This document shows, in pieces, positions 4,449 through 59,038 of a stretch of DNA of 64,000 nt; within the stretch, counting starts at the first letter, position 1, and every line of letters starts with the position of its first letter. The notes under the pieces are model-generated. The model had not been told where the DNA came from, made no database searches, and saw only the letters and a list, made by a program, of their open reading frames with translations. This DNA comes from a virus: positions 46,690 to 110,689 of IMG/VR virus record IMGVR_UViG_3300025687_000024. One strand, given 5' to 3'. Made by a program: the position numbers and the translations under genes.

Positions 4449-5497
4449 GGGGTACTCCTTCTTCGACTTCGTCGTGTCCAGGCAACGCCTGGTAGGGTGG
4501 CCAGCTGACCGATGGTCTTGGCGTTTGTCACGGCAGCTGAGAGGTGAGTGGTGTCAAGGTCATCCGGGCTCGTTCCTTCGGGGGAACCGTCCGGGTAGAG
4601 GCAGACGTAGGCACGCCCACTTCGCGATAGGCGCTGTGCAATCCTTATCGCAGAACACCGCCGGTTTTTGTCCGGGTCGGGGAAGTAGACGCCCTTTCCA
4701 GGCTCGTGATCCAAGAGGACGTAGTAGGGTCCCCGGAGCCGTGTGATGAGGCGCTCCTGCTGCTTGGTCAGCGTGGAGCCCTGCAGGGCTACGGTGTGCG
4801 GGAAGCCGTGCTCTATGCACCACAGGCATCCCTTGTAGCCCTCGACGATGACCAGCGGCGGCCGCGCTCCCTCATCTGCGAAGAAGCGCGCGGCGTAGAT
4901 GCGGTCGAAGGCGTACAGGTGCTTGCGGTTGGCCCCCGTGTAGCCGGGAACGATATCGTGGAACTCCTTCTCGTAGACGTAGTAGCGAGGCTCTACCCAG
5001 TCGTCGTAGGCGCGTCCGCTGATACCCACGAGCCTCCCGAGATAGTCTCGGATGGGGAAGGTGATGCGGTCGCGGCTCGCGTCATACCCGATGAACATCT
5101 CTTGGAGGATGTCTTCGGAGAAGCCCAGGTCGAGCATCTTGAGGGGGCACTGGTTGTAGGCGCCGAGCACGTACTCGGGCAGGACGTGCCACTCCCACCC
5201 CTGCTTCCCCTCCAGCTTCCGCTGGGCCAGTTCGGGCAGGGGAGGCGGGAGCCGCAGCTCCCCGATCTCCTGCTGTACGCGCTCTCCGGAGAGGCCCAGC
5301 TTGTAGAGGAGGTGGTAGACGGACCCGCCCGCGTGGCAGGAGAAGCAGGTCCAGCTCCCTTCCTTGGTGACGTAGAGCGAGCGCGAGGCTGACTTGGACT
5401 TGTGGAACGGGCACTCTGCACGCAGGTTCCCTTCACCAGAAGGGCGCACGTTGCGCAAGTAGCGCTCTGCCAGCCTCCTGATCTTGTCCGAGAGCAT
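4445..5497 (-). CDS. dnaG: DNA primase (CHC2 zinc finger + TOPRIM)
   Basis: CPFH...CFSC zinc finger, RITFPIRD..GRLVGISGR, IVEGY, LLDHE, PDD. Confidence 0.92.
   Translation of the reverse strand: MLSDKIRRLAERYLRNVRPSGEGNLRAECPFHKSKSASRSLYVTKEGSWTCFSCHAGGSVYHLLYKLGLSGERVQQEIGELRLPPPLPELAQRKLEGKQGWEWHVLPEYVLGAYNQCPLKMLDLGFSEDILQEMFIGYDASRDRITFPIRDYLGRLVGISGRAYDDWVEPRYYVYEKEFHDIVPGYTGANRKHLYAFDRIYAARFFADEGARPPLVIVEGYKGCLWCIEHGFPHTVALQGSTLTKQQERLITRLRGPYYVLLDHEPGKGVYFPDPDKNRRCSAIRIAQRLSRSGRAYVCLYPDGSPEGTSPDDLDTTHLSAAVTNAKTIGQLATLPGVAWTRRSRRRSTP
4643..4656 (-). promoter_or_regulatory. TTC-N4-ATAAG motif inside the primase 3' end, upstream of the SSB gene
   Basis: Minus strand reads GTTCTGCGATAAGG, about 195 nt before the SSB start. 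Confidence 0.4.
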
Positions 5498-5506
5498 CGG
5501 CTTCGG

Positions 5507-6859
5507 CTATCCTCCAGTCGGCCGGCGAGGGGGCTTGAAGCTGCTCAGGTCCACCTTCGTGGGAATGTCCCCAGCGGGGGCGGCCCCTGTGCGCTTCTTG
5601 CTCTGCTCGGCAGACGTTTCGTTGGCGTTGTACTCTTCGACCCACGAGGTGTTGTCGGCTACGGCCTGGCCGAAGCCGTCACACAGGCGAGCGCTGATGG
5701 TGAGGGAGATCTCCTCGTTCATGCCACGAGCGGCGTTGGGGATGAGGGCGAGGAGGTCCTGTTGCTTGTTGCAGATGATGCGCAGCGCGAGGTCCACCTT
5801 GCGGGCGATGTGGTCCGACCAGGCGTGCTCCACCGAGCTGCGCCCACGGGTCTTGTCCCCTTCCCGGTTGGCGTGCCCGCAGATGATAGCCGGCAGCTTC
5901 GCCTTGGAGATCAGGTAGGCCTTGAGCATGTCGATGGTGCGCGCCACGTAGACGTGCTCGCGTGCGTTGGACTTCTCGGCCATCGCATCGTCGGCCATCG
6001 CCTTCCAGTAGTCGTGGATGATGATGTGCGGCTTGACGTCCTCGACCTTGCCCTTGAACCCGCTCAGCCCACCTTCGACATCGGTGAAGATGAGCTTGCC
6101 TCGCGTCCGGAGGTCGCGGAGGAGCTGCTCTATGCGCTGCATCCCAGCGGGCGAGACGTCTCCCTTGAGCAGGCGCCCGTAGTCGAACTGCCCTCGGATA
6201 GCGATGACACGCCACTCCAGCTCTTCGGCGGTCATCTCCCGCGTGAAGAAGAGCACACGGAGGCCGAGAGCCTCATAGAACAGGGCGAGGAACAGCAGGA
6301 GGAAGGTCTTCCGGGTCTTGTGTCTCCCGTAGATGTAGATGAGGTTGCCAGGACAGAGCCCGGCCGAGTTGTTGTTGAACAGGTCCCAGGGCCAGGGGTA
6401 GCCCAGGAGGCCTTGCCCGGTCTGGAGACGCTCGAGCTTCTTGAAGATGGCGTCCGGATCGGACCCGACCACGAGGTCCGTGCGTCCCCGTTGGTTGAGT
6501 AGGTTGATCCGATCGGCAGCGTCCACCAGGAACTTCTTGGCTGCCCAGGGATCGCCTACGTTGACCTCTGCCGTGCGGTGCAGAGCGTCGTCGATCTCGG
6601 AGCCGAGCTTGTAGGTCTGGAGCTCAGCGATGATGGCCGAGAGGCCGTCGGACGGGGTGTGGTGCTGGTAGGTGGGGCAGAGTCCCTGGAAGTAGGGGAC
6701 GGACGGCACTTCGTGGTGGTTCTCGTAGTGCTCGGTGATCACGTCCCAGAACAGCTTGGCTTCGTCGCCGAGCAGCGAGGGATGCGCCCCCGCTTTCAGC
6801 GCCTCCGCCAAGTCTCTACTTTCCAGCACTGCTGCGACCAGCGCCAGATCGAGGTTCAT
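5507..6859 (-). CDS. dnaB: DnaB-like (SF4) replicative helicase
   Basis: Variant Walker A YGRHKTRKT, FFTREMT, Walker B IIIHDY, HANR; adjacent to primase. Confidence 0.85.
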   Translation of the reverse strand: MNLDLALVAAVLESRDLAEALKAGAHPSLLGDEAKLFWDVITEHYENHHEVPSVPYFQGLCPTYQHHTPSDGLSAIIAELQTYKLGSEIDDALHRTAEVNVGDPWAAKKFLVDAADRINLLNQRGRTDLVVGSDPDAIFKKLERLQTGQGLLGYPWPWDLFNNNSAGLCPGNLIYIYGRHKTRKTFLLLFLALFYEALGLRVLFFTREMTAEELEWRVIAIRGQFDYGRLLKGDVSPAGMQRIEQLLRDLRTRGKLIFTDVEGGLSGFKGKVEDVKPHIIIHDYWKAMADDAMAEKSNAREHVYVARTIDMLKAYLISKAKLPAIICGHANREGDKTRGRSSVEHAWSDHIARKVDLALRIICNKQQDLLALIPNAARGMNEEISLTISARLCDGFGQAVADNTSWVEEYNANETSAEQSKKRTGAAPAGDIPTKVDLSSFKPPRRPTGG

Positions 6860-6941
6860 GCCTCCTCCGCGTACTGGACCCTCCCTGCTCTGCGCCGCAG
6901 GGGGTCCGCTGCTTCAGGTGAAGTGAGTGCGCAGCTCGCTG

Positions 6942-6970
6942 ACTCTAGAGGGCTGGGAGGAGACCGTCAA
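6942..6970 (-). promoter_or_regulatory. Sigma70-like promoter upstream of the helicase
   Basis: TTGACG-17 nt-TAGAGT on the minus strand in the intergenic gap. Confidence 0.55.
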
Positions 6971-6972
6971 CC

Positions 6973-7287
6973 CTATCCCGCAAAGGAGAGCCCCCCGCTG
7001 GGCTGCGGCGGTTCATCGAAGGGGTCGTCGTCGAGGGGCCGGTGGGCCGGCGGCGGGGTGTGCCGCGTCAGGTGTGCGGCCACGTCGTCCTCGATGGACT
7101 CCTTGAGGGCGTGCAGGATCTGCAGGGACCGCTCGCTCCATGCCCCGTAGGTGAGGAAGGAGACGGTGTTGCCGTTTGGGTCCATGAAGGACATCTTGGC
7201 GAGGGGGTTGAGCCCGCCGATGAAGCGAACGCGAAGCTCGCCCACCACGACGTGCGCGATGTCGTTGTTGGGGGGAATCTGGGCCAT
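6973..7287 (-). CDS. Hypothetical protein (MAQIPPNN...)
   Basis: GGAGG RBS before ATG 7287; follows the stop of the 7289 gene. Confidence 0.7.
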   Translation of the reverse strand: MAQIPPNNDIAHVVVGELRVRFIGGLNPLAKMSFMDPNGNTVSFLTYGAWSERSLQILHALKESIEDDVAAHLTRHTPPPAHRPLDDDPFDEPPQPSGGLSFAG

Positions 7288-7288
7288 G

Positions 7289-7657
7289 TCAGCCTCCGCT
7301 GGAAGCGATGTCCGGGAAGAACTCGGCGACGATCTCGTCGCGCCGAGCGTGCAGCTCCGACTTGACGAAGTCCACGCAGTCTTGAAGGGCCGCGCGCTTC
7401 TCTGGCTCGGTAATCCCGCAAGGGACCGTGCACCAGGCCGTGACCTCGACCTTCTCTCGGGAGAACTCGGTCGAGGTGCCGATAGCGATGGAGATGCCGA
7501 CGCTGGCAGGGTGCGGGGGGAGCGCCTTTCGCGGGTCGAGCGGAGGCGCCTCGGTCGGGCGAGCGATCTGGTGAGGAGGGGAGCCCGGGCGCCGGGCCGT
7601 GGCCACGGAGCCGCGCTTGCCCGAGTCGGGCGGGCGGCGGAACGGAGAGTCACTCAT
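7289..7657 (-). CDS. Hypothetical protein
   Basis: Tightly packed ORF in the operon. Confidence 0.7.
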   Translation of the reverse strand: MSDSPFRRPPDSGKRGSVATARRPGSPPHQIARPTEAPPLDPRKALPPHPASVGISIAIGTSTEFSREKVEVTAWCTVPCGITEPEKRAALQDCVDFVKSELHARRDEIVAEFFPDIASSGG

Positions 7658-10283: not shown

Positions 10284-10681
10284 GGGCGACTCACTGCGGC
10301 GGTCAGCTTCTGCTCGAGGGCCTCCCGTAGCGCCTTGCGCTCCCGGGCGTCCAGCTGCAGGCGCAGGACGTTCTCGGCTTCGACGGCAGCCAGGGCTGCG
10401 ATGTCTCTGAGCAGAACATCTGGGTGTGGAGAGAGGGTGACGTGGGCACGCACCTCGGGGTCGAGCTGGTGCTCGGCGAGGAGGCGCCAGGCGACCAAGC
10501 GCCTGTCGGGCGGAACCTCGAGGGCGTTGAGCAAGTACTCCAGCAGCTCCCCCGACGGGTAGGACGTTCCGAGGAAGATGCGGCGAATGTGCTCCGGGGA
10601 CACGCCGACCCCGGCCGCTACTTCATGCTGGGCTATCCACGGGGCCTTGGCTGCCGCCAGTAGCTTCCCCAGGGACATCAT
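10280..10681 (-). CDS. XRE-family helix-turn-helix protein
   Basis: QHEVAAGVGVSPEHIRRIFLGTSYPS; start ATG 10681 overlaps the upstream stop. Confidence 0.75.
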   Translation of the reverse strand: MMSLGKLLAAAKAPWIAQHEVAAGVGVSPEHIRRIFLGTSYPSGELLEYLLNALEVPPDRRLVAWRLLAEHQLDPEVRAHVTLSPHPDVLLRDIAALAAVEAENVLRLQLDARERKALREALEQKLTAAVSRP

Positions 10682-11139
10682 GACGTGCCCTGGTGGTACT
10701 TGGAGCCGAAGCGCCGACGTGTGAAGAAGTAGGCGACCTCGGCGGCGATCGCCTGCACCCCGGCTTCGACCATGCGTAGGCCGAGGTCCTTCATGATGTC
10801 CCAGAACGAGGGGCGTTTCCACTTGCGCACTTCCCCCGGCTTCTGGGCGGCGACGGGAGCGTAGGCGGAGGGGCGGTCACCGTCGGCTTGACGGGGCGGC
10901 GTGGCGGCCGGCGGCGGGGCGGGGGCGACGTTGGTGCGGACGGTAGGCTGGCGGAGGGTCTGGGTGGTAGTTCTCACGGGAGCCTGCACGGGTGCTGGTG
11001 TGGGAGCGGCGGGAGCAGCTCGCGGGGGACGAAAAGGACTGCTGGAGCTTCCCTGGAAGGAGAACTGCTCTTGCGGAGGGGGCTGCGCCGCCGTGTTACC
11101 CCGGCGGAGCTGCTGGTAGAGCCTGTCGTTCGGTGGCAA
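10678..11139 (-). CDS. Hypothetical Pro/Ala-rich protein, first gene of the replication operon
   Basis: AGGAGG RBS followed by TTG at 11139. Confidence 0.65.
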   Translation of the reverse strand: MPPNDRLYQQLRRGNTAAQPPPQEQFSFQGSSSSPFRPPRAAPAAPTPAPVQAPVRTTTQTLRQPTVRTNVAPAPPPAATPPRQADGDRPSAYAPVAAQKPGEVRKWKRPSFWDIMKDLGLRMVEAGVQAIAAEVAYFFTRRRFGSKYHQGTS

Positions 11140-11181: not shown

Positions 11182-11195
11182 CCTTATGCGCGATA
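11182..11195 (-). promoter_or_regulatory. ATAAG motif (putative phage promoter) heading the replication operon
   Basis: Minus strand TATCGCGCATAAGG in the divergent gap, about 43 nt before start 11139. Confidence 0.65.
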
Positions 11196-15316: not shown

Positions 15317-15385
15317 CTACGAGTCGCTGACGCCCAGGAGAGCTCCCCAGGCGATGGCGCAGGTACAGAAGGCGGTGAACAGCAT
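15317..15385 (-). CDS. 22-aa hydrophobic micropeptide MLFTAFCTCAIAWGALLGVSDS
   Basis: ATG overlaps the TGA of the upstream acidic peptide (TGATG); not in the ORF track. Confidence 0.45.
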   Translation of the reverse strand: MLFTAFCTCAIAWGALLGVSDS

Positions 15386-15513
15386 CAGTCGGTGTCCTCT
15401 TCGTCATCGACGTCGAAGTCAGGGTCGTCGTAGTCGTCTTCGTCGTCGTAGGGGTTCAGGCCGAACTCCAGGTCATCCCAGAGCTCATCAGTGTGGGTAC
15501 GGGGACCGTGCAC
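15385..15513 (-). CDS. 42-aa highly acidic micropeptide
   Basis: GGAGG RBS with GTG 15513; MHGPRTHTDELWDDLEFGLNPYDDEDDYDDPDFDVDDEEDTD; ATAAG motif 39 nt upstream; not in the ORF track. Confidence 0.7.
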   Translation of the reverse strand: MHGPRTHTDELWDDLEFGLNPYDDEDDYDDPDFDVDDEEDTD

Positions 15514-15551: not shown

Positions 15552-15565
15552 CCTTATGCGAGAAT
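15552..15565 (-). promoter_or_regulatory. TTC-N4-ATAAG motif (putative phage promoter)
   Basis: Minus strand ATTCTCGCATAAGG. Confidence 0.65.
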
Positions 15566-15590: not shown

Positions 15591-18500
15591 ATGCCGTACC
15601 TGAGCCCTGACGAACAGTTCGCTGACCTCAAGAGCAAGGTCTCGTCCACCCTGATGGAGCTCTTCCCCGTGGAGGGGCGCGGCGGCCGCGTCGTCCTCAA
15701 GAACGTGGAGGTCGACGACAACCTCGACACGCATGACCTGCGCTCGCAGCGGGTAGCTCTGCAGGAGGGGAAGACCTGGGCGGTGCCCGTGTACGGGGAT
15801 GCTGTGCTCGAGCGCGAGGGCCAGGAGATCGACCGCAAGCGCGTCCTGCTGATGCACCTGCCCAAGACCACGGACAGGTTCGGCTACATCGTCAAGGGGC
15901 GGGAGTACCAGGCGCTCACCCAGTTCCGGCAGAAGTCCGGCGTGTACCACCGCACGGCGAGCAACGGCGCGCTGTTGGCCGAGTTCAACCTGGCCAACAG
16001 GGACCAGTTCGCCAACGGGCGTACCTTCAAGGTGCGGTTCGATCCCGAGGAGGCGGTCTACTACCTGCAGCACGGCAACTCCAACATCCCGCTGTACCAC
16101 CTGTTGAAGGGTGCCGGGGTCTCCGACCGGGAACTCGAGCAGCGCTGGGGAGCTGCCATCGTGCAGAAGAATCGAGAGCGGGCCTCGGCCGAGCAGGTCT
16201 ACTCCCGCTTCTACAAGGCGGTGAACAAGAAGCAGCCCGCGGATCCCATGAGGCACGCTGGGCTGTTCCGCGAGCTGCTCGGTAAGACCCGGCTGCGGGC
16301 GGACACGACCAAGAAGACGCTGGGCGCCGAGTTCGAGACTGTCGACAACGAGGTCCTCCTGCGCGCGACCGAGAACCTCCTCGACATGTCGAAGGGGCGC
16401 CGGGAGGATGACCCGAAGACTTCGCTGGAGTTCCAGTCCGTTCACACCATCGACGACTTCATCGACGGCCGCTTGAAGCGTGCGGCGCCGAGCATTCGCC
16501 GGAAGCTGGCCAACGCTCTGGCCAGCGGGCGCACGCGCAACGTACGCCGCGTGGTGAAGGCCGATCCGTTCGACCGGGCAGTGCAGGGCTACTTCACCTC
16601 TGACCTGACGGTGAACCCCGAGCAGACCAACCCCTTGGAGATGCTCGCCGGCCAGCTCAAGACCACCATCATGGGCGAGCAGGGAGGCTACAAGTCGGCG
16701 CACGTGGTGTCCGAGGAGTCCAAGCTCATCAGCCCGTCGCACCTCGGCTTCCTCGACCCCATCCACACCCCGGAGAGCGACAAGACGGGAGTGACCCTCT
16801 CGCTGCCGCTCGGTGTGAAGAAGGTCGGCAACGAGCTCGAGACGCTGCTGGTGGACGCCCGGACGGGGAGGACGCGGCGCATGCAGCCCGCGGACGTGCT
16901 CGACCAGACGGTGGCCTTCCCCGATCAGTACGAGCGGAAGGGGAAGAAGCTGGTAGCCCGTCACGCCAAGGTCAAGGCTACTCGTGGTGGAGAGGTCGTC
17001 ACGGTCCCTGCGAGCGAGGTCGACTACGTACTCCCCAGCCCACGCAGCCTGTTCGGCGTAGCGTCCAACCTGGTGCCCTTCCTGCAGAACAACCAGGGCA
17101 ACCGCGCCATGACCGCGGCCAAGCAGCAAGAACAGGCCGTGCCCCTGGAGCACCGGGAGGCTCCCCTGGTGCAGGTCGAGATGGACCGCGGGGGTACCTT
17201 CGAACAGGCTCTTGGCCTGTACGCCTCTCGCCGGGCCCCCGTAGCCGGGGTCGTCAAGACGGTGAAGAAGGACGCGGTGATCATCAACGACGGGGACAAG
17301 GACCACGAGGTCCAGATCTACCGCAACTTCCCGCTGAACGGGACCTCCCTCTACGACATGGACGTCCAGGTCAAGAAGGGTGACCAGGTCGAGAAGGGGC
17401 AGCTCCTCGCGGACTCCACCTTCACCAAGGACGGGACGCTGGCGCTCGGAACCAACCTGCGGACCGCCTACATCCCCTTCATGGGGTACAACTTCGAGGA
17501 CGGCATCGTCATCTCGGAGGCCGCTGCGAGGAAGCTGGCGTCGCGCCACCTCTACAAGAAGTCCACAGCGCGGGATGCCGACACGATCCTCAGCCGGAAG
17601 ACCTTCCTGGCAGAGTACCCCTACGTCTTCGGCAAGGGGCAGCTGAGCGGTGTGGGGGAGGACGGCATCGTGAAGCCCGGCACCATCCTCAACGAGGGTG
17701 ACCCGCTCATCATGGTGCTGCGGAAGCCCCCCATGACCAAGGCACGCAAGCAGATCCGGGAGTTCCGCCGAGGGCGGCCTGACAAGTACCGGGACCGCTC
17801 CGTCGTGTGGGACAAGCCCTACCAGGGCGAGGTCACCGAGGTCGTGCGCAAGGGCAAGGACGTCACGGTCTACGTCAAGACCCGAGAGCCCGCCCAGATC
17901 GGCGACAAGGTCGTCGGGCGGCACGGCAACAAGGGCGTCATCACGCGCATCATCCCGGTGTCCGAGATGCCCTGGAAGGAGGGAGAGAACGGCGAGAAGG
18001 AGCACGTCGAGATCGCGCTGAACCCCCTGGGCGTGCCCGGGCGCATCAACCTCGGGCAGATCCTGGAGACCGCGGCGGGTAAGGTGGCCGAGAAGCGCGG
18101 GAAGCCCTACGGCGTGCGCAACTTCGAGGCCGAGAAGGACTACCTGGCGATGGTCAAGGAGGACCTGGCCGCCGAGGGTCTGCAGGACCGCGACGAGCTC
18201 ATCGACCCTCGGACGGGGAAGCCCTTCCCCAACCGCATCCTGGCGGGCAACCAGTACATCGTCAAGCTGAAGCACCAGGTGGGCAAGAAGGTCTCTGCCC
18301 GTGCCGGCGGTCCCGGCGCGCCCTACGACATCAACCACGCGCCGGCCGGGGGCGCTCCCCACGGGGGGCAGGCTCTGGGGGAGCTCGGGATGTACTCCAT
18401 GCTGGCGCACGGAGCCCGGGAGAACCTCCACGAGATGTTCGCCTACAAGTCGTCCCGCAACCACGAGCTGTGGGATGCCCTGCGAGAAGGGACGCCGCTA

Positions 18501-21500
18501 CCGCCCCCGAAGGTGCCCTTCGCCTACGAGAAGTTCCTCTCCTACCTGAACGCCATGCGCGTCGACGCACGGAAGCACGGGAACAGCCTGACCTTGGTCC
18601 CGTTCACCGAGGAGCAGGTGAAGTCGATGTCGGCCGGGGAGCTCAAGGATCCCGGGCTGGTGGTGCGCGGCAAGGACTTGCGTCCGCTCAAGGGCGGGCT
18701 GTTCGACGAGGACATCACGGGCGGCATGCTCGGGGACAAGTGGGCACACTTCAAGCTCGCCGAGCCCATGCCGAACCCGCTCTTCGAGGACGCGGTCAAG
18801 AAGCTCCTCAACATCACCCGCAAGCGCTACGCGGACATCGTCGCGGGACGGGTGGAGGTCAAGGGCAAGCGGGGCGGGGAGGCCATCAAGGCCCTGCTGG
18901 AGGACGTCAACGTCGCGGAGCAGCGGGAAGCCATCACTGCGAAGCTCGCGACTGCGAAGGGAGCCACGCGGAGCAAGCTGCACAAGCAGCTGCGCATCCT
19001 CAAGGCCCTGGAGGCCAACAACCTCGACCCCACGGTCTACATGATGGAGTCCGTGCCCGTCGTCCCGCCGATCATGCGCCCCGTAACGGTCAAGGACGAC
19101 GGCTCCCTCTCGTCCAACGACTTGAACTACCTCTACAAGGGCATCGCGGCCTCCAACGACGTGCTCCGGAGCAACAAGCGGGCAGGCCTGCCCGCAGCCC
19201 ACATGGAGACGGTGCGCTCCGAGCTGTACGATGGCGTCAAGGCCCTGATGGGTGTCGGCGCCGCGGCTGCGCCGGGCCCGCGCGACTACCAGGGAGTGCT
19301 CAAGATCATCTCGGGGGATCAGCCCAAGGAGGGCTACTTCCAGAAGCGCGTGATGAAGCGCCGCCAGGACTTCTCGGCCCGGTCCATCATCATCCCGGAG
19401 CCGGGCATGGACCTCGACGAGCTCGGGGTGCCCGAGAAGGTGGCCTGGTCGCTGTACCAGCCCTTCATCGAGCGCGACCTCGCCCGGGCGGGCTGGAAGA
19501 TGCTCGACGCCATCAACGAGGTCAAGGCCCGCGGTCCCGCGGCCGAGAAGGCGTTGGAGCGTGCGGTGCAGGAGCGCCCCATTCTACTGAAGCGCGACCC
19601 CGCTCTGCACATGTTCAACGTGATGGCCTTCAAGCCCAGGCTGGTGAAGGGCAGCGCCATCGAAATCCACCCCCTCGTCGTCTCGGGCTACAACGCTGAC
19701 TTCGACGGCGACGCCATGAGCGTGTACCTGCCCCTCACCTCGAAGGCGGTGAAGGAAGCGCATGGCATGTACCCGTCCAAGAACTTGTTCAGCTCGAGCA
19801 CGGGTGCCGTGATGCACACGCCCGGGCACGAAGCGTTGCTCGGCCTCTACCTGGCGTCGAAGCCCGGGAAGCGCACGCGGCACACGTTCAAGACGGGAGA
19901 AGACGCGCGGGCGGCCTGGCGTCGGGGACGTATCGACCGGACGGACATCATCCACGTGGCTGGGCACGAGACTACGGTGGGCCGGCTGGACATCGAGCGG
20001 CACCTGCCGCCGGAGCTGCGGGAGACCGGGAAGAAGCCTGTCTCCCAGATGCGGGTCTACGACAAGGGGACCACCAAGAAGGTGCTGACGGCCATCGCCA
20101 AGAAGAACCCTGACCACTACGGCAAGGTGGCCAACGCCTTCAAGGACATCGGCAACGAGCACACCTTCGACGTAGGGTTCTCCATCGGCCTCGACGACTT
20201 CGAGGTCATCAACCGGAAGGAGCGGGACTCCATGATGCAGGCGGCCGAGGCCCAGGCGGACCGCATCCGGCAGGGTCCCGGGAGCAAGCAGCGGAAGGAC
20301 GAGCGGGTCGTCAAGATCTTCCAGGACCTCGATGACTCCCTCGACCGCCTCAACACCGAGCACCTGGCCCAGAACCCCACCAACATCTCCCGCATGGTGG
20401 AGTCCGGGGCGCGCGGCAAGCCCTCGCAGCTCAAGCAGATCATCAGCAGTCCCGTGTTGGTGATGGACGCGAAGAACCGGGTGGTGCCGAGCCTCATCCC
20501 GCGGTCGTACTCCGAGGGCATGGACGTGGCGTCCTACTGGACCACGCTGCACGGTGCGCGGAAGGGCACCATCCAGAAGGTGCAGGGCGTGAAGGACCCC
20601 GGGTACATCTCCAAGCAGGTGATGAACTCCACCATGAACCAGCTCGTCACGGAGCGAGACTGCGGGACGACCGAGGGCATCTTCATGTCCGTCGATGACT
20701 CGGACATCCTGGACAGGTACACGGTGCAGGGGACGCTCATCACGCCGAAGGTGGTGGCTGATGCGCGGAAGCGCCGACAGCGCTCCCTCAAGGTGAGGTC
20801 CCCCCTGCGGTGCAAGTCGTCGCACGGCATCTGCCAGAAGTGCATGGGGCTGAGCGTGAACGGACACCACCACGATGTGGGGACCAACGTGGGGGTGCTC
20901 GCTGGGCAGGCCATCGGAGAGCCCGCGACGCAGCTCTCCCTCAACGTCTTCCACACGGGAGGCTTGGCCAAGGGGCGCGGCTCGAAGAGCGTCAACGCCT
21001 TCCACCGGCTCACCGAAATCTTGCGGCTCCCCAAGAACCTGCCGGACGCAGCGCCGCTGGCCCTGGAGTCGGGGACGGTCACCAAGGTCGAGCGCGCGCC
21101 GCAGGGCGGCGAGTACGTGACCGTCGGCCGGACGCGCCACTACCTCCCGGCGGCTCAGGCCAGGGCGGTGAAGCGCGGGCAGCCTGTGCGCAAGGGCGCT
21201 CCGCTGACGGATGGCGTGGTGGACCCGCGCAACCTGCTGTCCCTGCGGGGCCTCGAGGCTGTGCAAGACCACCTCACCGACGAGCTCGCCGACGTCATGG
21301 GTACGGTGGCTCCGGTGAAGCGACGCAACCTCGAGGTCGTCGTCAAGTCGCTCACGAACGTCACGCACATCGACGATGCGGGAGACCACCCGGAGTGGGT
21401 TCCGGGCGATGCGCAGCCCTACAGTGCCGTGCAGGCGTACAACCGGAAGCCCGGCACGAAGCCGGTCAAGCATACGCCCTACCTCAAGGGAGTCAACGTC

Positions 21501-21701
21501 CTGCCCCACGAGATGCAGGAAGACTGGATGGCGCGCCTGAACTACACCGACCTCTCGCGCACGCTGACCGAGGCGGCCCGCGAGGGCTGGCGGTCCAACA
21601 TCCACGGCTTCCATCCGGTACCCGGGGCGGCCTACGCTGCCGAGTTCGGGCAGAAGCAGAAGGCCGTCAAGCCCGGTGAGCCCTGGAGAGGTGAGTATTG
21701 A
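15591..21701 (+). CDS. rpoBC: Phage two-barrel RNA polymerase, beta and beta' fused in one 2036-aa chain
   Basis: Beta motifs HLGFLDPIHTPES, LVPFLQNNQGNRA, GYNFEDGIVISE, GDKVVGRHGNKG, LNPLGVPGRINLGQ and GGQALGE; then beta' motifs VPVVPPIMRP, RDPALH, YNADFDGDAM, SGARG, RSPLRC..GICQKC and GEPATQLSLNVFHTGG. No stop codon between them. Confidence 0.97.
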   Translation: MPYLSPDEQFADLKSKVSSTLMELFPVEGRGGRVVLKNVEVDDNLDTHDLRSQRVALQEGKTWAVPVYGDAVLEREGQEIDRKRVLLMHLPKTTDRFGYIVKGREYQALTQFRQKSGVYHRTASNGALLAEFNLANRDQFANGRTFKVRFDPEEAVYYLQHGNSNIPLYHLLKGAGVSDRELEQRWGAAIVQKNRERASAEQVYSRFYKAVNKKQPADPMRHAGLFRELLGKTRLRADTTKKTLGAEFETVDNEVLLRATENLLDMSKGRREDDPKTSLEFQSVHTIDDFIDGRLKRAAPSIRRKLANALASGRTRNVRRVVKADPFDRAVQGYFTSDLTVNPEQTNPLEMLAGQLKTTIMGEQGGYKSAHVVSEESKLISPSHLGFLDPIHTPESDKTGVTLSLPLGVKKVGNELETLLVDARTGRTRRMQPADVLDQTVAFPDQYERKGKKLVARHAKVKATRGGEVVTVPASEVDYVLPSPRSLFGVASNLVPFLQNNQGNRAMTAAKQQEQAVPLEHREAPLVQVEMDRGGTFEQALGLYASRRAPVAGVVKTVKKDAVIINDGDKDHEVQIYRNFPLNGTSLYDMDVQVKKGDQVEKGQLLADSTFTKDGTLALGTNLRTAYIPFMGYNFEDGIVISEAAARKLASRHLYKKSTARDADTILSRKTFLAEYPYVFGKGQLSGVGEDGIVKPGTILNEGDPLIMVLRKPPMTKARKQIREFRRGRPDKYRDRSVVWDKPYQGEVTEVVRKGKDVTVYVKTREPAQIGDKVVGRHGNKGVITRIIPVSEMPWKEGENGEKEHVEIALNPLGVPGRINLGQILETAAGKVAEKRGKPYGVRNFEAEKDYLAMVKEDLAAEGLQDRDELIDPRTGKPFPNRILAGNQYIVKLKHQVGKKVSARAGGPGAPYDINHAPAGGAPHGGQALGELGMYSMLAHGARENLHEMFAYKSSRNHELWDALREGTPLPPPKVPFAYEKFLSYLNAMRVDARKHGNSLTLVPFTEEQVKSMSAGELKDPGLVVRGKDLRPLKGGLFDEDITGGMLGDKWAHFKLAEPMPNPLFEDAVKKLLNITRKRYADIVAGRVEVKGKRGGEAIKALLEDVNVAEQREAITAKLATAKGATRSKLHKQLRILKALEANNLDPTVYMMESVPVVPPIMRPVTVKDDGSLSSNDLNYLYKGIAASNDVLRSNKRAGLPAAHMETVRSELYDGVKALMGVGAAAAPGPRDYQGVLKIISGDQPKEGYFQKRVMKRRQDFSARSIIIPEPGMDLDELGVPEKVAWSLYQPFIERDLARAGWKMLDAINEVKARGPAAEKALERAVQERPILLKRDPALHMFNVMAFKPRLVKGSAIEIHPLVVSGYNADFDGDAMSVYLPLTSKAVKEAHGMYPSKNLFSSSTGAVMHTPGHEALLGLYLASKPGKRTRHTFKTGEDARAAWRRGRIDRTDIIHVAGHETTVGRLDIERHLPPELRETGKKPVSQMRVYDKGTTKKVLTAIAKKNPDHYGKVANAFKDIGNEHTFDVGFSIGLDDFEVINRKERDSMMQAAEAQADRIRQGPGSKQRKDERVVKIFQDLDDSLDRLNTEHLAQNPTNISRMVESGARGKPSQLKQIISSPVLVMDAKNRVVPSLIPRSYSEGMDVASYWTTLHGARKGTIQKVQGVKDPGYISKQVMNSTMNQLVTERDCGTTEGIFMSVDDSDILDRYTVQGTLITPKVVADARKRRQRSLKVRSPLRCKSSHGICQKCMGLSVNGHHHDVGTNVGVLAGQAIGEPATQLSLNVFHTGGLAKGRGSKSVNAFHRLTEILRLPKNLPDAAPLALESGTVTKVERAPQGGEYVTVGRTRHYLPAAQARAVKRGQPVRKGAPLTDGVVDPRNLLSLRGLEAVQDHLTDELADVMGTVAPVKRRNLEVVVKSLTNVTHIDDAGDHPEWVPGDAQPYSAVQAYNRKPGTKPVKHTPYLKGVNVLPHEMQEDWMARLNYTDLSRTLTEAAREGWRSNIHGFHPVPGAAYAAEFGQKQKAVKPGEPWRGEY

Positions 21702-31594: not shown

Positions 31595-31608
31595 GCTTAT
31601 AGAGGCAA
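31595..31608 (-). promoter_or_regulatory. Variant ATAAG motif
   Basis: Minus strand TTGCCTCTATAAGC, 48 nt before start 31547. Confidence 0.5.
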
Positions 31609-31622
31609 AGCGTTGATTTTTT

Positions 31623-53430: not shown

Positions 53431-53444
53431 GCTTATCCCCGAAA
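53431..53444 (-). promoter_or_regulatory. TTC-N4-ATAAG motif
   Basis: Minus strand TTTCGGGGATAAGC. Confidence 0.55.
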
Positions 53445-55208: not shown

Positions 55209-55210
55209 GA

Positions 55211-55846: not shown

Positions 55847-55992
55847 GTGTCACCTGTTTCGGCGGGTGGCTCCGCATTCCCGTGCTCCCCGGACGGCCCT
55901 GTCCCTCTCGGGCAGTCGACCTCCTCCCCCATTCGACGGTTCACCGCACGGGCACGCGCTTCCACTCCACACTGGCCGGTTGACCATGCTGC

Positions 55993-56217
55993 TTATGCCC
56001 GTTTCCGGCCGCGGTTCTCGGTCGTCAGGGCGCGGTCCATGGCCATCCAGAAGGCGAGGATGCCCTGGATGATCGTGGAGTTGGAGATGTGCTTGCGGAA
56101 GGGGCGGACGATGCTACTGCGCTGTAGCTCGCTCTTCTTGCGCTCGATGAACGCTGCCTGCTCGGGAGGGATGCGGATGGTCATCTGCACCATCCCCTTC
56201 GACTTCTTGCGGGTCAT
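55993..56217 (-). CDS. Small ribbon-helix-helix-like DNA-binding protein
   Basis: VQMTIRIPPEQAAFIE...SNSTIIQGIL; GGAGAGG RBS. Confidence 0.55.
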   Translation of the reverse strand: MTRKKSKGMVQMTIRIPPEQAAFIERKKSELQRSSIVRPFRKHISNSTIIQGILAFWMAMDRALTTENRGRKRA

Positions 56218-56767
56218 TCGCCTCTCCTTGCTGCAGCGTCGCGATGTACGCCTTCCAGGCTTCTACGTCTCTTCTTTGTACCCAGACTTGCCGCGGGTTG
56301 CCAGCGTTCCACCGGGCAGTGCCTCGACTTCCCGGGAACTTGAAGGTGACGTAGCCTCCGGTTTCCTCGACCCCGGGGGAGACGTCAGTGACGGTGGCCT
56401 GGGGCCAGCGACGGCGCACTTCGGCTTCGGCGTGCTCGGCTCGTTCGCGGGAGCGCTCCTTCAGCTCGAGGAACTCGCACGTGTGCGCATGCGTCACGGC
56501 GAAGCGCCCGTTGCCTGGCGAGCTGTAGACGCGCAGAGCGTGCGTGCAGCCCTCGGGGAGGTCCGAGGCGAAGACCCAGCGCGCGTAGTAATAGCGGAGG
56601 GGCCCCATGTACGGGACGGCCGCGTCTTCGTCGCACTCGAACTCTACGAGGTAGTCGGCGAGCGCCTCGAGGTAGGTCCCGCGGTCCACGTGCCCCCGCA
56701 CGTAGTACTCGACGGGATCCCCGTCCCACACCAGGGGGAGGACCTCTCCCACGGCAGCGGACGGCAT
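56114..56767 (-). CDS. Hypothetical protein
   Basis: ATG 56767 overlaps the upstream stop. Confidence 0.6.
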   Translation of the reverse strand: MPSAAVGEVLPLVWDGDPVEYYVRGHVDRGTYLEALADYLVEFECDEDAAVPYMGPLRYYYARWVFASDLPEGCTHALRVYSSPGNGRFAVTHAHTCEFLELKERSRERAEHAEAEVRRRWPQATVTDVSPGVEETGGYVTFKFPGSRGTARWNAGNPRQVWVQRRDVEAWKAYIATLQQGEANDPQEVEGDGADDHPHPSRAGSVHRAQEERATAQ

Positions 56768-57189
56768 CAGAACCTCGTGGACGGGCGCCTGGAGTCGGGC
56801 CACCCGTCGAACAGCTCGACGATGCGCATGCCAGCGGACTGAGGATACTCGCGAAACTCGGGGTCCTCGAGGGTGCCGTCCGCCTGGCGCGCGGCCCACT
56901 CTTGCTGCATCAGCTTGTCGTTCGCCCAGTTGGGGAAGCCCTGCGCGTAGTCGATGGCGAACCCGAGCATCGCGTCGGTGACGCGGCCGCGACGGAGTGC
57001 CAGGTCCGTGTGCCCCAGGGCATCCAGACGCTCCGAGAGGACGTACAGGTGGTCGCCGGCGTCCGTGGAGTCCTTCGTCTGCACGAGCATCGAAGCCACG
57101 CGGCGTACCTCCTCGGCTGTCGGGGAGGTCTCGAAGTCGTCATGGGCGATGGCGAACGCCTTGAGCGACGTATGCTGGGTCAGTTCCAT
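56767..57189 (-). CDS. Hypothetical protein
   Basis: Packed ORF. Confidence 0.65.
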   Translation of the reverse strand: MELTQHTSLKAFAIAHDDFETSPTAEEVRRVASMLVQTKDSTDAGDHLYVLSERLDALGHTDLALRRGRVTDAMLGFAIDYAQGFPNWANDKLMQQEWAARQADGTLEDPEFREYPQSAGMRIVELFDGWPDSRRPSTRF

Positions 57190-57380
57190 CGTTCAACGCT
57201 CTCCCGGATGCTCTCCAGCGTCTCCCACATCTTGTCGGTAACGCGGTTCGTGGCGCGGGCGGTCTCGCTCATCCCCTCCACGAGCTGCGCCCAGCGTCCG
57301 GACGCGCGGCAGGATGAGGGGAGGTCGGCAATGTCTTGGAGCAGGTCGTCGGCCTGCTCGAGGAAGGAGTCGGAGTCCAT
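57180..57380 (-). CDS. Small hypothetical protein (MDSDSFLEQ...)
   Basis: GAGG RBS; ATAAG motif 39 nt upstream. Confidence 0.65.
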   Translation of the reverse strand: MDSDSFLEQADDLLQDIADLPSSCRASGRWAQLVEGMSETARATNRVTDKMWETLESIRESVERWN

Positions 57381-57418
57381 GGGTACCTCACGTAGGGAGT
57401 CACGAGGGGGAGTACTAC

Positions 57419-57432
57419 CCTTATGCGCGAAA
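57419..57432 (-). promoter_or_regulatory. TTC-N4-ATAAG motif
   Basis: Minus strand TTTCGCGCATAAGG; GC hairpin 57449-57474 just upstream. Confidence 0.7.
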
Positions 57433-57486
57433 GAGAGCGCGAACGCCAGCCCCCTCTGGCAGGCCAGAGGGGGCCGGGGGAGAGTC

Positions 57487-58446
57487 CTACTCGATGGGCA
57501 GCGACTCACGGGCGGGTTCGGGCTTCTCGATGTCGTCCGGCGTGTCCGTGCCCTTCACGGGCTCCGGGGGCGGATACCCCGCGGCGACGAAGAGCTGGGT
57601 CACCAGGTCGGTGTCGCGGCCGGCTTCCCACTCACGCTGCAGGATGGTGATGATGTCCTCGAGCTTGGTCTCGGCGAGGTCCGCGCGCTTGGTGAGCGCG
57701 ACGTACTGCGCCGCGAGCCACTCCAGCCCGTCGAAGACCGGCTCGAAGACGGAGAAGTCCTCGGGCGAGGCCAGGTGGTTGGTCAGCCCGATCACGACGG
57801 CCTTGGCCTTGTCGGTGAACTCCAGGTGGTTGTAGTCCAGGAAGAAGGGGTGGGTGTGCAGACCTTCCACGACGCGGATGATCGTGGTGGCGAGGATGTG
57901 CTTGGGGCGCATGGAGACCTCTCGGGCGGGAGTGCGTTCACGGGCAGAAGCCCCGTGGGCGGTGGGTGTGGGGTTCAGGCGAAGTGCGCAGTCCAGCGCG
58001 TGGTAGGTGGAGTGCGGGCAGTACTTGGCGATGGTGCGCTCGAGGGACATGCGAAGCTGGTCGCTGTTGAGCAGCACGGGCGAATCTTCGACGTAGGGGA
58101 CGGTCACCTGCAGGATGGCGTTCTGGAACGCCTCGTGGAAGTGGCTGCGCGGGCTGTTGGCGAAGTAGGGCCAGAGCCCGGCGAGGGTCACAGCGGCAGC
58201 GCGTGGATCCTGCAGCTTGCGGCGGGTAGCGAGCACGGTGGATGCCCGCGCAGTGCGCATCCAGCGCCAGAACTCCCGAACAGCAGGAGGGGAGTGCATC
58301 TCGCCCAGGGCATACTCGACGCGCGCGTCGTAGAGGGACTTGTGCATGGACTCTCCAGGGCCGAGCGACGGGTGCACGTTCGACGGTGGGGGCACGGGCA
58401 GACGGAAGGCCTGCCCCGTAGCCTCGAGGGAAGGAATGGTGGACAT
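57487..58446 (-). CDS. Hypothetical protein (possible internal start at 57912)
   Basis: GAGG RBS at both starts. Confidence 0.65.
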   Translation of the reverse strand: MSTIPSLEATGQAFRLPVPPPSNVHPSLGPGESMHKSLYDARVEYALGEMHSPPAVREFWRWMRTARASTVLATRRKLQDPRAAAVTLAGLWPYFANSPRSHFHEAFQNAILQVTVPYVEDSPVLLNSDQLRMSLERTIAKYCPHSTYHALDCALRLNPTPTAHGASARERTPAREVSMRPKHILATTIIRVVEGLHTHPFFLDYNHLEFTDKAKAVVIGLTNHLASPEDFSVFEPVFDGLEWLAAQYVALTKRADLAETKLEDIITILQREWEAGRDTDLVTQLFVAAGYPPPEPVKGTDTPDDIEKPEPARESLPIE

Positions 58447-58462
58447 GTGTACCTCTCACCTA

Positions 58463-58476
58463 CCTTATGCGTGAAA
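58463..58476 (-). promoter_or_regulatory. TTC-N4-ATAAG motif
   Basis: Minus strand TTTCACGCATAAGG; GC hairpin 58489-58518 just upstream. Confidence 0.7.
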
Positions 58477-58500
58477 GTGTGGGGCGGTGCCCCCGCCCGC

Positions 58501-58719
58501 CTACTGGCGGGCGGGGGCTTCGAAGACGCCGGGGGCGCTCTCGACCATCGGGATCACCACGGTACCCTCGGGGGGTTGGTAGCGCGGCTGCGCCTTGCGG
58601 GCGTCGGGGGGCACCTCGTAGGTGAACTCGATGTCAGCGGTGTCTCGTCGAGCCTTGGCCTGCCCGCGTGCGATTCCGACGCGGATGTTGCGGGTCAGGA
58701 CTTCCAGCAGGACGCTCAC
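58501..58719 (-). CDS. Small hypothetical protein
   Basis: GTG 58719 overlaps the upstream stop. Confidence 0.55.
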   Translation of the reverse strand: MSVLLEVLTRNIRVGIARGQAKARRDTADIEFTYEVPPDARKAQPRYQPPEGTVVIPMVESAPGVFEAPARQ

Positions 58720-58973
58720 TGCGCGAGCTCGCGCTTGTGCTCCGGGTGGACGATGGCGACGGCGCCGGCGGCGCGCAGGAGCTCCTGCGGGTCCACCGAG
58801 ACGGTCACCGTCAGGGGCTGCCCCGGCTGCCACTTGAGGAGCTGCCCATCGAAGCGGGCGTTGAGCTGCAGCGTGACCAGGGGGTTCCCGGACTCACAGC
58901 GGACGCGCATCTCCCCATCGGGGAGGCGCTTGCCCTCTTTGTTCCGGAGCTTGACGGCGGTAGAGATCTGCAT
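58716..58973 (-). CDS. Small hypothetical protein (MQISTAVK...)
   Basis: AGGAGG RBS with ATG 58973. Confidence 0.65.
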   Translation of the reverse strand: MQISTAVKLRNKEGKRLPDGEMRVRCESGNPLVTLQLNARFDGQLLKWQPGQPLTVTVSVDPQELLRAAGAVAIVHPEHKRELAQ

Positions 58974-59024
58974 GGCTGCCTCCTGAGTGTGACTGGAGAG
59001 GCGTCTCTCTGTCCTCTCCAAGCC

Positions 59025-59038
59025 CCTTATGAGCGAAA
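59025..59038 (-). promoter_or_regulatory. TTC-N4-ATAAG motif
   Basis: Minus strand TTTCGCTCATAAGG; hairpin 59054-59084 just upstream. Confidence 0.7.

What the first reader, a model, noticed from the sequence alone, without database searches (positions are those of the whole stretch)
4643..59038. Strand-specific TTC-N4-ATAAG(G/C) motif: candidate promoter of the phage RNAP
Seen on the minus strand: 57419 TTTCGCGCATAAGG, 58463 TTTCACGCATAAGG, 59025 TTTCGCTCATAAGG, 15552 ATTCTCGCATAAGG, 11182 TATCGCGCATAAGG, 53431 TTTCGGGGATAAGC, 31595 TTGCCTCTATAAGC and 4643 GTTCTGCGATAAGG, with a core-only copy at 55991. Seven are intergenic and six lie 17-52 nt before a minus-strand start codon. ATAAG is otherwise rare in this GC-rich DNA, and I noticed no plus-strand copy. 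The motif does not resemble a sigma70 -35/-10 pair. The targets are the replication operon and small early-type genes. Inference: a compact phage-specific promoter.
Basis: partly seen in the sequence, partly recalled or inferred. Interest (0 to 1): 0.8.

Follow-up and report, generated by a model that had tools for sequence, protein, structure and literature searches.

The report
Phage-specific ATAAG promoter class
The repeated ...TTTC-N-C-N-CATAAGG word is a real, evolutionarily conserved start signal for transcription in front of this large GC-rich phage's early, replication and small accessory genes, most likely read by the phage's own sigma factor together with its single-chain bacterial-type RNA polymerase, a transcription system not yet studied at the bench.

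Summary
Observation confirmed. ATAAG occurs 9 times in the window, all on the minus strand. TCNCNCATAAGG occurs 5 times against 0.05 expected. Seven copies are intergenic and six lie 16-51 nt before minus-strand start codons.

Interpretation partly supported. It is a phage-specific promoter, but it does resemble a sigma-type promoter. With ATAAG placed at -11..-7 (CATAAG against TATAAT, G at -7), all five strong sites have T(-1)/purine(+1) exactly 7 nt downstream. They also carry TTTC at -19..-16.

Relatives whose RNAP is 40-62% identical keep the ATAAG core at the same syntenic positions. They add a -35-like GAAA/GCAAA box and a TG/GG extended -10.

The genome encodes a sigma70-family factor outside the window. 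Its homologues in the phage collection occur only in phages that carry this fused beta-beta' RNAP. In the cultured relative Salmonella phage Arash, GGTATAAG occurs 31 times and every copy is intergenic. Arash's published virion proteome contains RNAP and sigma.

The strand specificity follows gene orientation. Structural, RNAP and sigma genes sit on the other strand, some behind canonical TTGACA/TAnnnT promoters.

Which polymerase reads the sites, and where transcription starts, are inferred, not shown. This scan has already found the same ATAAG promoter class in several other genomes. What is new here is the TTTC/-35-poor sub-clade variant.

The parts
59025..59038 (-). Strong promoter copy TTTCGCTCATAAGG. 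Predicted T(-1) at 59020 and G(+1) at 59019. Serves the 58716-58973 gene (85 aa) and the gene after it.
   Evidence: Exact TCNCNCATAAGG hit. Sequence context: stop codon, hairpin, 14 nt, motif, leader, GGAGG, ATG.
58463..58476 (-). Strong promoter copy TTTCACGCATAAGG. Predicted G(+1) at 58457, the first base of the GAGAGG ribosome-binding site. Serves the 57487-58446 gene (319 aa).
57419..57432 (-). Strong promoter copy TTTCGCGCATAAGG. Predicted A(+1) at 57413. Serves 57180-57380 (66 aa) and 56767-57189.
15552..15565 (-). Strong promoter copy ATTCTCGCATAAGG. Predicted G(+1) at 15546. Drives a tiny minus-strand gene wedged between the portal-like gene and the RNAP gene.
   Evidence: A minus-oriented ATAAG in the 130 nt before the RNAP start is present in 25 of 31 related loci.
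11182..11195 (-). Strong promoter copy TATCGCGCATAAGG at the head of the minus-strand replication operon, in a divergent intergenic region. Predicted G(+1) at 11176.
   Evidence: The same junction carries an ATAAG site in G001 (79722), G002 (53537), L005 (4384) and L004 (3665), with conserved synteny.
31595..31609 (-). Probable promoter TTTGCCTCTATAAGC with an A-rich box (GAAAAAAA) 16 nt upstream and T(-1)G(+1). Lies 48 nt before the 31113-31547 gene.
   Evidence: Positional counterpart in G001 at 102226, after the homologue of the 31623 gene.
4643..4656 (-). Possible internal promoter GTTCTGCGATAAGG inside the primase gene, with GACAAAAA 16 nt upstream. Lies 194 nt before the 3258-4448 gene.
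   Evidence: G002 has a strong copy (TTTCTGCGCATAAGG) inside its primase homologue at a different position. Function uncertain.
53431..53444 (-). Possible promoter TTTCGGGGATAAGC. It overlaps a 5-bp hairpin and lies about 117 nt before the 52216-53313 gene. A TATGAT hexamer lies closer to that gene.
55991..55997 (-). Doubtful core-only copy GCATAAGC. Its TAA is the stop codon of the 55993-56217 gene.
59053..59084 (-). 14-bp GC-rich hairpin after the stop of the 59099-60154 gene, 14 nt before the promoter copy. Terminator or 3'-end structure, not part of the promoter.
   Evidence: fold z -4.07
58489..58518 (-). 13-bp GC-rich hairpin spanning the stop of the 58501-58719 gene, 12 nt before the promoter copy.
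   Evidence: fold z -5.60
57446..57477 (-). 14-bp GC-rich hairpin after the stop of the 57487-58446 gene, 13 nt before the promoter copy.
   Evidence: fold z -3.61
15591..21701 (+). Fused beta-beta' multisubunit-type RNA polymerase (2036 aa), the candidate reader. It lies on the strand that lacks the motif.
   Evidence: Pfam Rpb2_6 plus Rpb1_1/2/4/5; PHROG RNAP beta families; family of about 2050-aa fused homologues.
15385..15513 (-). 42-aa very acidic ORF (GTG start, GGAGG 9 nt upstream) served by the 15552 promoter.
   Evidence: Several related loci show a start codon and charged or acidic codons just after the motif at the same place.
10678..11139 (-). First gene of the replication operon (TTG start, GGAGGAG upstream; Pro-rich, 153 aa), served by the 11182 promoter.
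   Evidence: C-terminal homologues in G001, G002 and L005.

Best explanation
The motif is the core of a phage-specific, sigma-dependent promoter class for the early, accessory and replication genes. Read on the gene strand, CATAAG(G) acts as a -10-like element: A-11, T-10, A-9, A-8, with C at -12 and an unusual G at -7. TTTC at -19..-16 and GC at -13/-12 act like an extended -10 or spacer contact. Transcription is predicted to start at the purine 7 nt after ATAAG. That holoenzyme may be carried in the virion and injected, so that these genes are expressed independently of the host. The GC-rich hairpins just upstream of three copies end the preceding transcription units. Shown here: the sequence pattern, its statistics, its orientation and position, its conservation, and the presence and co-occurrence of sigma and RNAP. 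Inferred: promoter activity, the start site, the identity of the reading enzyme, and timing.
For: (1) Five exact copies against 0.05 expected. CATAA/ATAAG are the top upstream-enriched 5-mers in G000, in G001 and in the pooled GC-rich set.
(2) Each strong copy is intergenic, points at a downstream gene, and lies 16-51 nt before its start codon.
(3) All five strong sites have T(-1)/R(+1) 7 nt after ATAAG. Across 27 near-clade sites, 26 have a purine at +1.
(4) Positional conservation holds in syntenic relatives whose RNAP is only 40-62% identical and whose GC ranges from 45 to 67%.
(5) Pooled over G000, G001, G002 and G006, 29 of 75 upstream regions on the early strand carry ATAAG, against 1 of 74 on the RNAP/structural strand (Fisher P 2e-9).
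(6) In the complete relative G006, 19 of 20 ATAAG copies are non-coding, and a GCAAA box lies 17-19 nt upstream.
(7) The sigma70-family protein is encoded in G000. Homologues are in G001 and G002 and in 4 of 4 complete far-clade genomes.
(8) Among 50,697 phage records, sigma homologues are found only in Arash, Vibrio phages D69/D148/D181 and one faecal fragment. Those four named phages are the top RNAP hits.
(9) In Arash, GGTATAAG occurs 31 times, 31 of 31 intergenic and 30 of 31 on the strand opposite the RNAP gene, against only 2 GGTATAAT. The Arash virion proteome contains RNAP beta, beta' and sigma Gp10 (PMC10585845).
(10) No canonical sigma70-type site lies in the early region 52000-64000.
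Against: No transcription start sites or expression data exist for this phage or any relative. The five strongest sites here have no recognisable -35 box. T-7, a hallmark of sigma70 -10 elements, is replaced by G, so the alignment to TATAAT is an inference. The register could be shifted by a base or two. Sigma could equally act on host core enzyme. The Arash virion proteome lists 116 proteins, so carry-over of abundant proteins is possible. G000 is only about 65% complete, so other sigma factors or regulators may be missing from view. Arash has a second annotated sigma (gp196).
Confidence: 0.65

Rival explanations
1. The sites are promoters read by the phage sigma factor bound to HOST core RNA polymerase, in the way SPO1 gp28 or T4 gp55 redirect host enzyme. 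The phage fused RNAP would transcribe something else.
For: The sigma is a sigma70-family protein with regions 2-4. Such factors normally bind bacterial core enzyme. The promoter geometry is bacterial. The mechanism is precedented in other phages (general knowledge).
Against: In the phage collection, sigma homologues occur only in phages that also carry this RNAP. They are present in every complete clade genome tested. In Arash both sigma and RNAP are detected in virions, where no host core is expected. A fused RNAP with bacterial-type domains needs some specificity factor.
Confidence: 0.15
2. The sites are read by a host holoenzyme, either the housekeeping sigma tolerating a weak -10 or a host group-3 sigma such as sigma28/FliA, whose promoters also carry ATAA at -11..-8 after a GC-rich stretch.
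For: There is a resemblance to sigma28 promoters: (-36)TCTAAAG(-30) ... (-15)GCCGATAA(-8) in PMC12784957. ATAA matches the middle of TATAAT. The copy at 4643 reads GCGATAAGG.
Against: The same core, with G at -7, is kept in phages of 45-67% GC, including a Salmonella phage. In Arash, GGTATAAG outnumbers GGTATAAT 31 to 2. Position -12 is C or T, not the G of sigma28 sites. These phages place canonical TTGACA-N17/18-TAnnnT promoters elsewhere, so host-type signals are a separate class. The phage carries its own group-3-like sigma.
Confidence: 0.08
3. The word is not a promoter. It would be an operator for a phage DNA-binding protein, an RNA processing or stability signal, or a terminator-associated element.
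For: Three copies sit 12-14 nt after strong hairpins. No start sites are mapped.
Against: The motif is asymmetric and always points at the downstream gene. Two strong copies (15552, 11182) have no upstream hairpin and no co-directional upstream gene. Spacing to the start codon varies from 16 to 51 nt, which argues against a translational signal. T(-1)R(+1) and, in relatives, -35-like boxes at promoter spacing. No Rfam family matches.
Confidence: 0.05

Closest known systems
ATAAG promoter class already noted by this scan in other uncultured phages of the same lineage (e.g. e1-5727812, e1-5834530, e1-5816209, e1-5618772)
   Same: ATAAG core with G at -7. Placed in front of non-structural genes. 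The lineage carries a fused beta-beta' RNAP and its own sigma. Arash is the cultured relative.
   Different: In this genome the five strongest copies carry TTTC at -19..-16 and CGC at -14..-12, instead of GG/TG at -14/-13, and they lack a clear -35 GCAAA/GAAA box. It is a sub-clade variant, also seen in L003, L002, L005, L021, L025 and G001.
Extended -10 promoters of bacterial sigma70-family holoenzymes (TGnTATAAT, with or without TTGACA)
   Same: A-11, T-10, A-9, A-8. A conserved element immediately upstream of the hexamer. A 6-nt discriminator, then a pyrimidine/purine start. A -35-like box at 16-18 nt in relatives. A cognate sigma70-family protein is encoded.
   Different: G instead of T at -7 and C instead of T at -12. 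The upstream element here is TTTC at -19..-16, not TG at -15/-14. The probable core enzyme is a phage single-chain beta-beta' fusion.
Sigma28 (FliA, group 3) promoters: (-36)TCTAAAG(-30) ... (-15)GCCGATAA(-8) (PMC12784957)
   Same: ATAA at -11..-8 preceded by a GC-rich extended -10. An A-rich -35 (AAAG against GAAAG/GCAAA in relatives). The phage sigma scores best against group-3 sigma models (SigB/F/G 1.4e-8; FliA/WhiG 0.003).
   Different: Position -12 is C (or T in Arash), not G. G-7 is conserved. No sigma28 -35 box in the strong copies here. All the sigma's matches are far below the NCBIfam family cut-offs.
Non-canonical multisubunit RNAPs of jumbo phages (phiKZ, AR9) and their promoters
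   Same: A phage-encoded bacterial-type RNAP with short phage-specific promoters. A virion-packaged enzyme for early genes (PMC7598289, PMC9209446).
   Different: Those enzymes are split into 4-5 polypeptides. They have no sigma70-family factor (PMC7824862) and use gp68/gp226-type subunits. Their promoter words are different, and AR9 reads the template strand.
Coliphage N4 transcription scheme
   Same: An RNAP gene sits among virion genes and an injected polymerase is proposed for early genes. Host-type promoters sit on the structural-gene strand (general knowledge).
   Different: N4 vRNAP is a single-subunit T7-like enzyme that recognises DNA hairpins. Here the hairpins are absent from 2 of 5 strong sites and are not part of the motif.

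Membership tests
sigma70-family-dependent promoter | -10 element with A at -11 | tested here: met
   With ATAAG placed at -11..-7, A-11 is present in every copy by construction. The register is supported by T(-1)/R(+1) 7 nt downstream in 5 of 5 strong sites and a purine at +1 in 26 of 27 near-clade sites.
sigma70-family-dependent promoter | T at -7 (TAnnnT) | tested here: not met
   G at -7 in all copies. In Arash, 31 GGTATAAG against 2 GGTATAAT.
sigma70-family-dependent promoter | -35 element 16-18 nt upstream of the -10 hexamer | tested here: inconclusive
   No shared box in the five strong copies. A-rich boxes lie 16-17 nt upstream of ATAAG at 31595, at 4643 and at genome position 42604. 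The box is clear in relatives: A-32/A-31 in 24 and 17 of 28 sites, and GCAAA in G006.
sigma70-family-dependent promoter | A cognate sigma70-family factor is available | tested here: met
   G000:C1:13219-13944, 241 aa. Pfam Sigma70_r4 over cut-off in frame; r3 and r4; PHROG 351 sigma, E 1.9e-10; aligns to RpoS/SigA region 2.
sigma70-family-dependent promoter | Experimentally mapped start site and sigma dependence | not testable with these tools
   No transcript data. Requires 5'-end mapping or in vitro transcription.
sigma28/FliA promoter | GCCGATAA at -15..-8 and TAAAG-type -35 | tested here: not met
   Strong copies read CGCGCATAAG, CACGCATAAG and CGCTCATAAG. The -12 base is C, not G, and there is no TAAAG box. 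The consensus is from PMC12784957.
T7-like single-subunit RNAP promoter | Single-subunit (T7/N4-type) RNAP encoded and about 20 contiguous conserved bases spanning the start | tested here: not met
   The RNAP is of the multisubunit type, with Rpb1/Rpb2 domains. Conservation is limited to about 14 nt plus T(-1)R(+1).
N4 virion-RNAP early promoter | A DNA hairpin as part of the promoter | tested here: not met
   No hairpin at the 15552 and 11182 copies (z +0.76 and +1.34).
phiKZ/AR9-type non-canonical RNAP promoter | Split beta/beta' subunits, no sigma70-family factor, gp68/gp226-type specificity subunit | tested here: not met
   beta and beta' are fused in one 2036-aa chain. A sigma70-family gene is present.

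The most novel reading that the evidence does not exclude
This phage lineage carries a self-contained transcription machine delivered in the virion. It consists of a single-chain bacterial-type beta-beta' RNAP and a bona fide sigma70-family factor with its own promoter code (ATAAG, G at -7, orthogonal to host TATAAT). This sub-clade has replaced the -35 box by a TTTC element at -19..-16. It would be the first phage multisubunit RNAP shown to use a true sigma factor.
Probability: 0.5. Interest if true: 0.8.

Novelty: new variant of a known kind. Interest (0 to 1): 0.62.

Why it matters
Phages with cellular-type RNA polymerases studied so far (phiKZ, AR9) use sigma-less, split enzymes. The lineage with a fused beta-beta' RNAP was described from metagenomes (PMC7481178), and that paper contains no promoter analysis. 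A conserved promoter word gives concrete templates for in vitro transcription. So does a co-inherited sigma factor and a cultured relative, Arash, whose virions contain both proteins.

The G at -7 is a direct test of how sigma region 2 reads the -10 element. The word also lets the early and replication transcription units be marked in a family of large phages that is so far known almost only from metagenomes. It may also offer a host-orthogonal promoter/polymerase pair.

Tried and rejected
Steps that led nowhere:
- Megablast of the RNAP gene against phage records found no match.
- A single-protein scan of viral contigs found no relative. A profile from an alignment was needed.
- Rfam gave no match in the window.
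- A Pfam r4 scan of relatives was too insensitive to count their sigma factors.
- Two literature searches (CATAAG + promoter + phage; mReC + RNA polymerase) returned no paper whose listed title or abstract deals with promoters of this lineage.

Ideas rejected:
- The hairpin as part of the promoter (N4-like). Hairpins occur only where a co-directional gene ends upstream.
- The 11186 ATG inside the motif as the start of the plus gene. The real start is the ATG at 11231, preceded by a GAGAG ribosome-binding site. The minus-strand ORF extension from 11232 is full of rare codons.
- Plus-strand reading of the 15552 copy as a promoter for the RNAP gene. A minus-strand ORF with a ribosome-binding site follows the motif, and relatives show the same layout.
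- A sigmaE/sigmaK-type register (GCATAnnnT; consensus in PMC3416734). Only 1 of 5 strong copies has the T.
- A canonical sigma70 promoter. None is found in 52000-64000.
- Strand specificity as a property of the motif itself. It follows gene orientation.

Full report
**1. The observation**

- ATAAG occurs 9 times in the window, never on the plus strand. In the whole 110,689-bp record it occurs 10 times on the minus strand and once on the plus strand. The window is bases 46,690-110,689 of that record.
- TTC-N4-ATAAGS gives 6 hits against 0.07 expected.
- The sharper word TCNCNCATAAGG gives 5 exact hits against 0.05 expected. Its 1-2-mismatch neighbourhood is at chance. This marks a small set of near-identical sites, not a compositional effect.
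- I made gene calls from codon statistics. With those, an unbiased count of all 5-mers in gene-upstream intergenic DNA ranks CATAA and ATAAG first: 7 observed against 0.23 expected.
- Seven of the 11 genome copies lie in the 4.4% of DNA that is non-coding (P 9e-8).

**2. Anatomy**

Read on the minus strand, the three copies in the small-gene region (59025, 58463, 57419) share one layout: stop codon, 13-14-bp GC hairpin, 12-14 nt, cTTTCNCNCATAAGG, a leader of 16-51 nt containing a ribosome-binding site, then the start codon. The hairpins fold with z scores of -4.1, -5.6 and -3.6.

The 15552 copy drives a 42-aa acidic ORF (GTG 15513, GGAGG 9 nt upstream). This ORF is wedged, in antisense orientation, between the portal-like gene and the RNAP gene.

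The 11182 copy sits in the divergent region at the head of the minus-strand replication operon. That operon begins with a TTG start at 11139 and continues through a helicase, DnaB, primase and PolA. The plus-strand gene there starts at 11231, not at the ATG inside the motif. These two copies have no hairpin. The hairpins therefore end upstream genes and are not part of the signal.

The remaining copies are weaker:
- 31595 has a 1-nt longer spacing but an A-rich box 16 nt upstream.
- 4643 lies inside the primase gene.
- 53431 overlaps a hairpin.
- 55991 contains a stop codon.

**3. The polymerase and a sigma factor**

The 15591-21701 product is a fused beta-beta' enzyme of the multisubunit type, with Rpb2_6 plus Rpb1_1/2/4/5 domains. 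It is not a T7-like enzyme. It belongs to a large family of about 2050-aa fused homologues from metagenomes. That lineage was described as a clade of Caudovirales encoding multi-subunit RNAP (PMC7481178). The word 'promoter' does not occur in that paper.

Outside the window, at G000:C1:13219-13944 on the plus strand, the record encodes a 241-aa sigma70-family protein.
- Pfam region 4 is over its cut-off in frame; region 3 and a weak region 2 also match.
- PHROG 351 'sigma factor' matches at E 1.9e-10.
- The best NCBIfam models are group-3 sigmas, far below their cut-offs.
- It aligns to RpoS/SigA region 2, with Y430H, W434N and Q437K-type differences. The residue numbering is from general knowledge of E. 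coli sigma70.

**4. Comparative evidence**

A profile of the RNAP fetched 31 related loci, 40-62% identical, with GC from 45 to 67%. I also took the full contigs G001, G002, G004 and G006.
- Twenty-five of the 31 loci carry a minus-oriented ATAAG in the 130 nt before the RNAP start. In several it is followed by a ribosome-binding site and a short ORF with charged or acidic codons.
- A second copy lies 4-6 kb further upstream, at the head of the replication operon. Gene order is conserved there.
- G001 also keeps the copy after the homologue of the 31623 gene.
- In G001, 8 of 11 ATAAG copies lie in the 3.7% of DNA that is non-coding. In the complete 201.9-kb G006, 19 of 20 are non-coding and 13 lie 17-69 nt before a same-strand start.
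- Pooled over four genomes, 29 of 75 upstream regions on the early/replication strand carry ATAAG. Only 1 of 74 does on the strand that carries the RNAP, sigma and structural genes (P 2e-9).
- The strand specificity is therefore a matter of gene orientation. G001 has a divergent +/- pair, and G006 has its copies mostly on the plus strand.

**5. Promoter geometry**

I aligned all intergenic copies on ATAAG, with A set to -11.
- The near clade (27 sites) shows T-19, T-18, T-17, C-16, G-13, C-12, ATAAG, T-1, and a purine at +1 in 26 of 27 sites. All five strong copies here read T(-1)R(+1) exactly 7 nt after ATAAG.
- The far clade (28 sites) shows A-32/A-31 (a GAAA/GCAAA box 16-18 nt upstream), T-15/G-14 and G-13.

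This is sigma70-family geometry: CATAAG against TATAAT, differing at -12 and -7. The TTTC element lies where region 3 of sigma contacts extended -10 promoters (general knowledge).

In this genome the strong copies have TTTC but no shared -35 box. The weaker copies (31595, 4643, and genome position 42604) have an A-rich box 16-17 nt upstream instead. That trade-off is familiar from extended -10 promoters.

The closest described consensus is sigma28: (-36)TCTAAAG(-30) ... (-15)GCCGATAA(-8) (PMC12784957). It shares ATAA at -11..-8 and a GC-rich extended -10, but differs at -12 and has no conserved G-7. The sites here do not meet that consensus.

**6. Who reads it**

Canonical TTGACA-N17/18-TAnnnT promoters do exist in these phages. 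Seven of the ten found are on the other strand. Examples are TTGACG-N18-TACACT before 32416 here, and TTGACA-N17-TACCAT and TTGACT-N18-TACGAT in G006. None is found in the early region 52000-64000. There are thus two promoter classes.

The sigma is co-inherited with the RNAP.
- Homologues are in G001 and G002 and in 4 of 4 complete far-clade genomes.
- Among 50,697 phage records, homologues occur only in Salmonella phage Arash, Vibrio phages D69/D148/D181 and one faecal fragment. Those four named phages are the top RNAP hits.

In Arash (53% GC), upstream-region k-mers give GGTATAAG. It occurs 31 times. All 31 copies are intergenic, 30 are on the strand opposite the RNAP gene, and each is followed by N6-GTA. 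GGTATAAT occurs only twice.

The Arash paper reports RNAP beta as the most-detected protein in purified virions. RNAP beta' and sigma Gp10 were also detected, and the authors suggest a role in early transcription. The paper does not mention promoters (PMC10585845).

Together this favours a phage sigma plus phage RNAP holoenzyme, possibly injected. Phage sigma on host core, or a host sigma, is less likely. None of this is shown experimentally.

**7. Novelty and standing**

I found no description of this promoter word in the held literature. Within this scan, however, the same ATAAG class has already been reported and followed up in several other genomes of the lineage. I reached my conclusions before reading those notes. 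I took from them only the pointer to the sigma28 paper.

What is particular to this genome and its nearest relatives is the TTTC(-19..-16)/CGC variant, with no clear -35 box in the strongest sites. I file it as a new variant of a known kind: sigma-dependent promoters and phage-specific promoter classes.

**8. Limits**
- Gene calls are my own codon-statistics calls.
- The -11 register is an inference.
- G000 is only about 65% complete.
- The promoter for the 59099-64000 gene block is not in the record.

Noticed in passing
G000:C1:13219-13944 (+), about 33 kb before the window start (L047:13219-13944): A 241-aa sigma70-family factor gene. Its neighbours are a SNF2-type helicase gene (6372-8147) and large genes of unknown function. 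It is co-inherited with the fused RNAP across the lineage.
   Followed up: yes
window 15385-15513 (-) and about 15318-15386 (-): A 42-aa very acidic ORF followed by an overlapping 22-aa hydrophobic ORF, antisense between the portal-like gene and the RNAP gene. Several relatives show a short ORF with charged or acidic codons at the same place after their ATAAG copy. Its function is unknown; a DNA mimic or a polymerase or sigma modulator are guesses.
   Followed up: partly
window 32377-32406 (+): A canonical host-type promoter, TTGACG-N18-TACACT, before the plus-strand gene at 32416. A counterpart, TTGACG-N18-TAGATT, lies before the homologous gene in G001.
   Followed up: partly
window 6942-6970 (-): A canonical TTGACG-N17-TAGAGT about 80 nt before the DnaB-like helicase gene, inside the replication operon. 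It is positionally conserved in G001 (TTGACC-N17-TAGGAT) and G002 (TTGACC-N18-TAAGCT).
   Followed up: partly
window 53335-53350 (-): TTTTCGCTATGATAGG just before the ribosome-binding site of the 52216-53313 P-loop kinase-like gene. It looks like a degenerate copy of the motif or a TATGAT host-type -10.
   Followed up: no
window 21698-23272 (+): The gene directly after the RNAP gene carries T4 gp5 C-terminal repeats (tail-spike/hub type). The RNAP gene therefore lies between portal-like and tail genes. This fits a virion-associated enzyme.
   Followed up: partly
whole record G000: CheckV-type completeness is about 65%. Complete relatives are 190-210 kb, and one has direct terminal repeats. The record ends with a minus-strand gene reaching to within 4 bases of one end and a plus-strand gene starting at base 2 of the other. 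The ends are therefore probably assembly breaks.
   Followed up: partly
Salmonella phage Arash OQ632216.1 (L062-L071): GGTATAAG-N6-GTA occurs 31 times, all intergenic and 30 on one strand. The single plus-strand copy (11588) lies about 320 nt before the sigma gene gp10. Arash also has a second annotated sigma (gp196).
   Followed up: partly
window 11230-11233: A CCATGG palindrome gives an ATG on both strands at the divergent junction. This creates a spurious 5' extension of the minus-strand ORF (10678-11232) across the promoter copy.
   Followed up: yes
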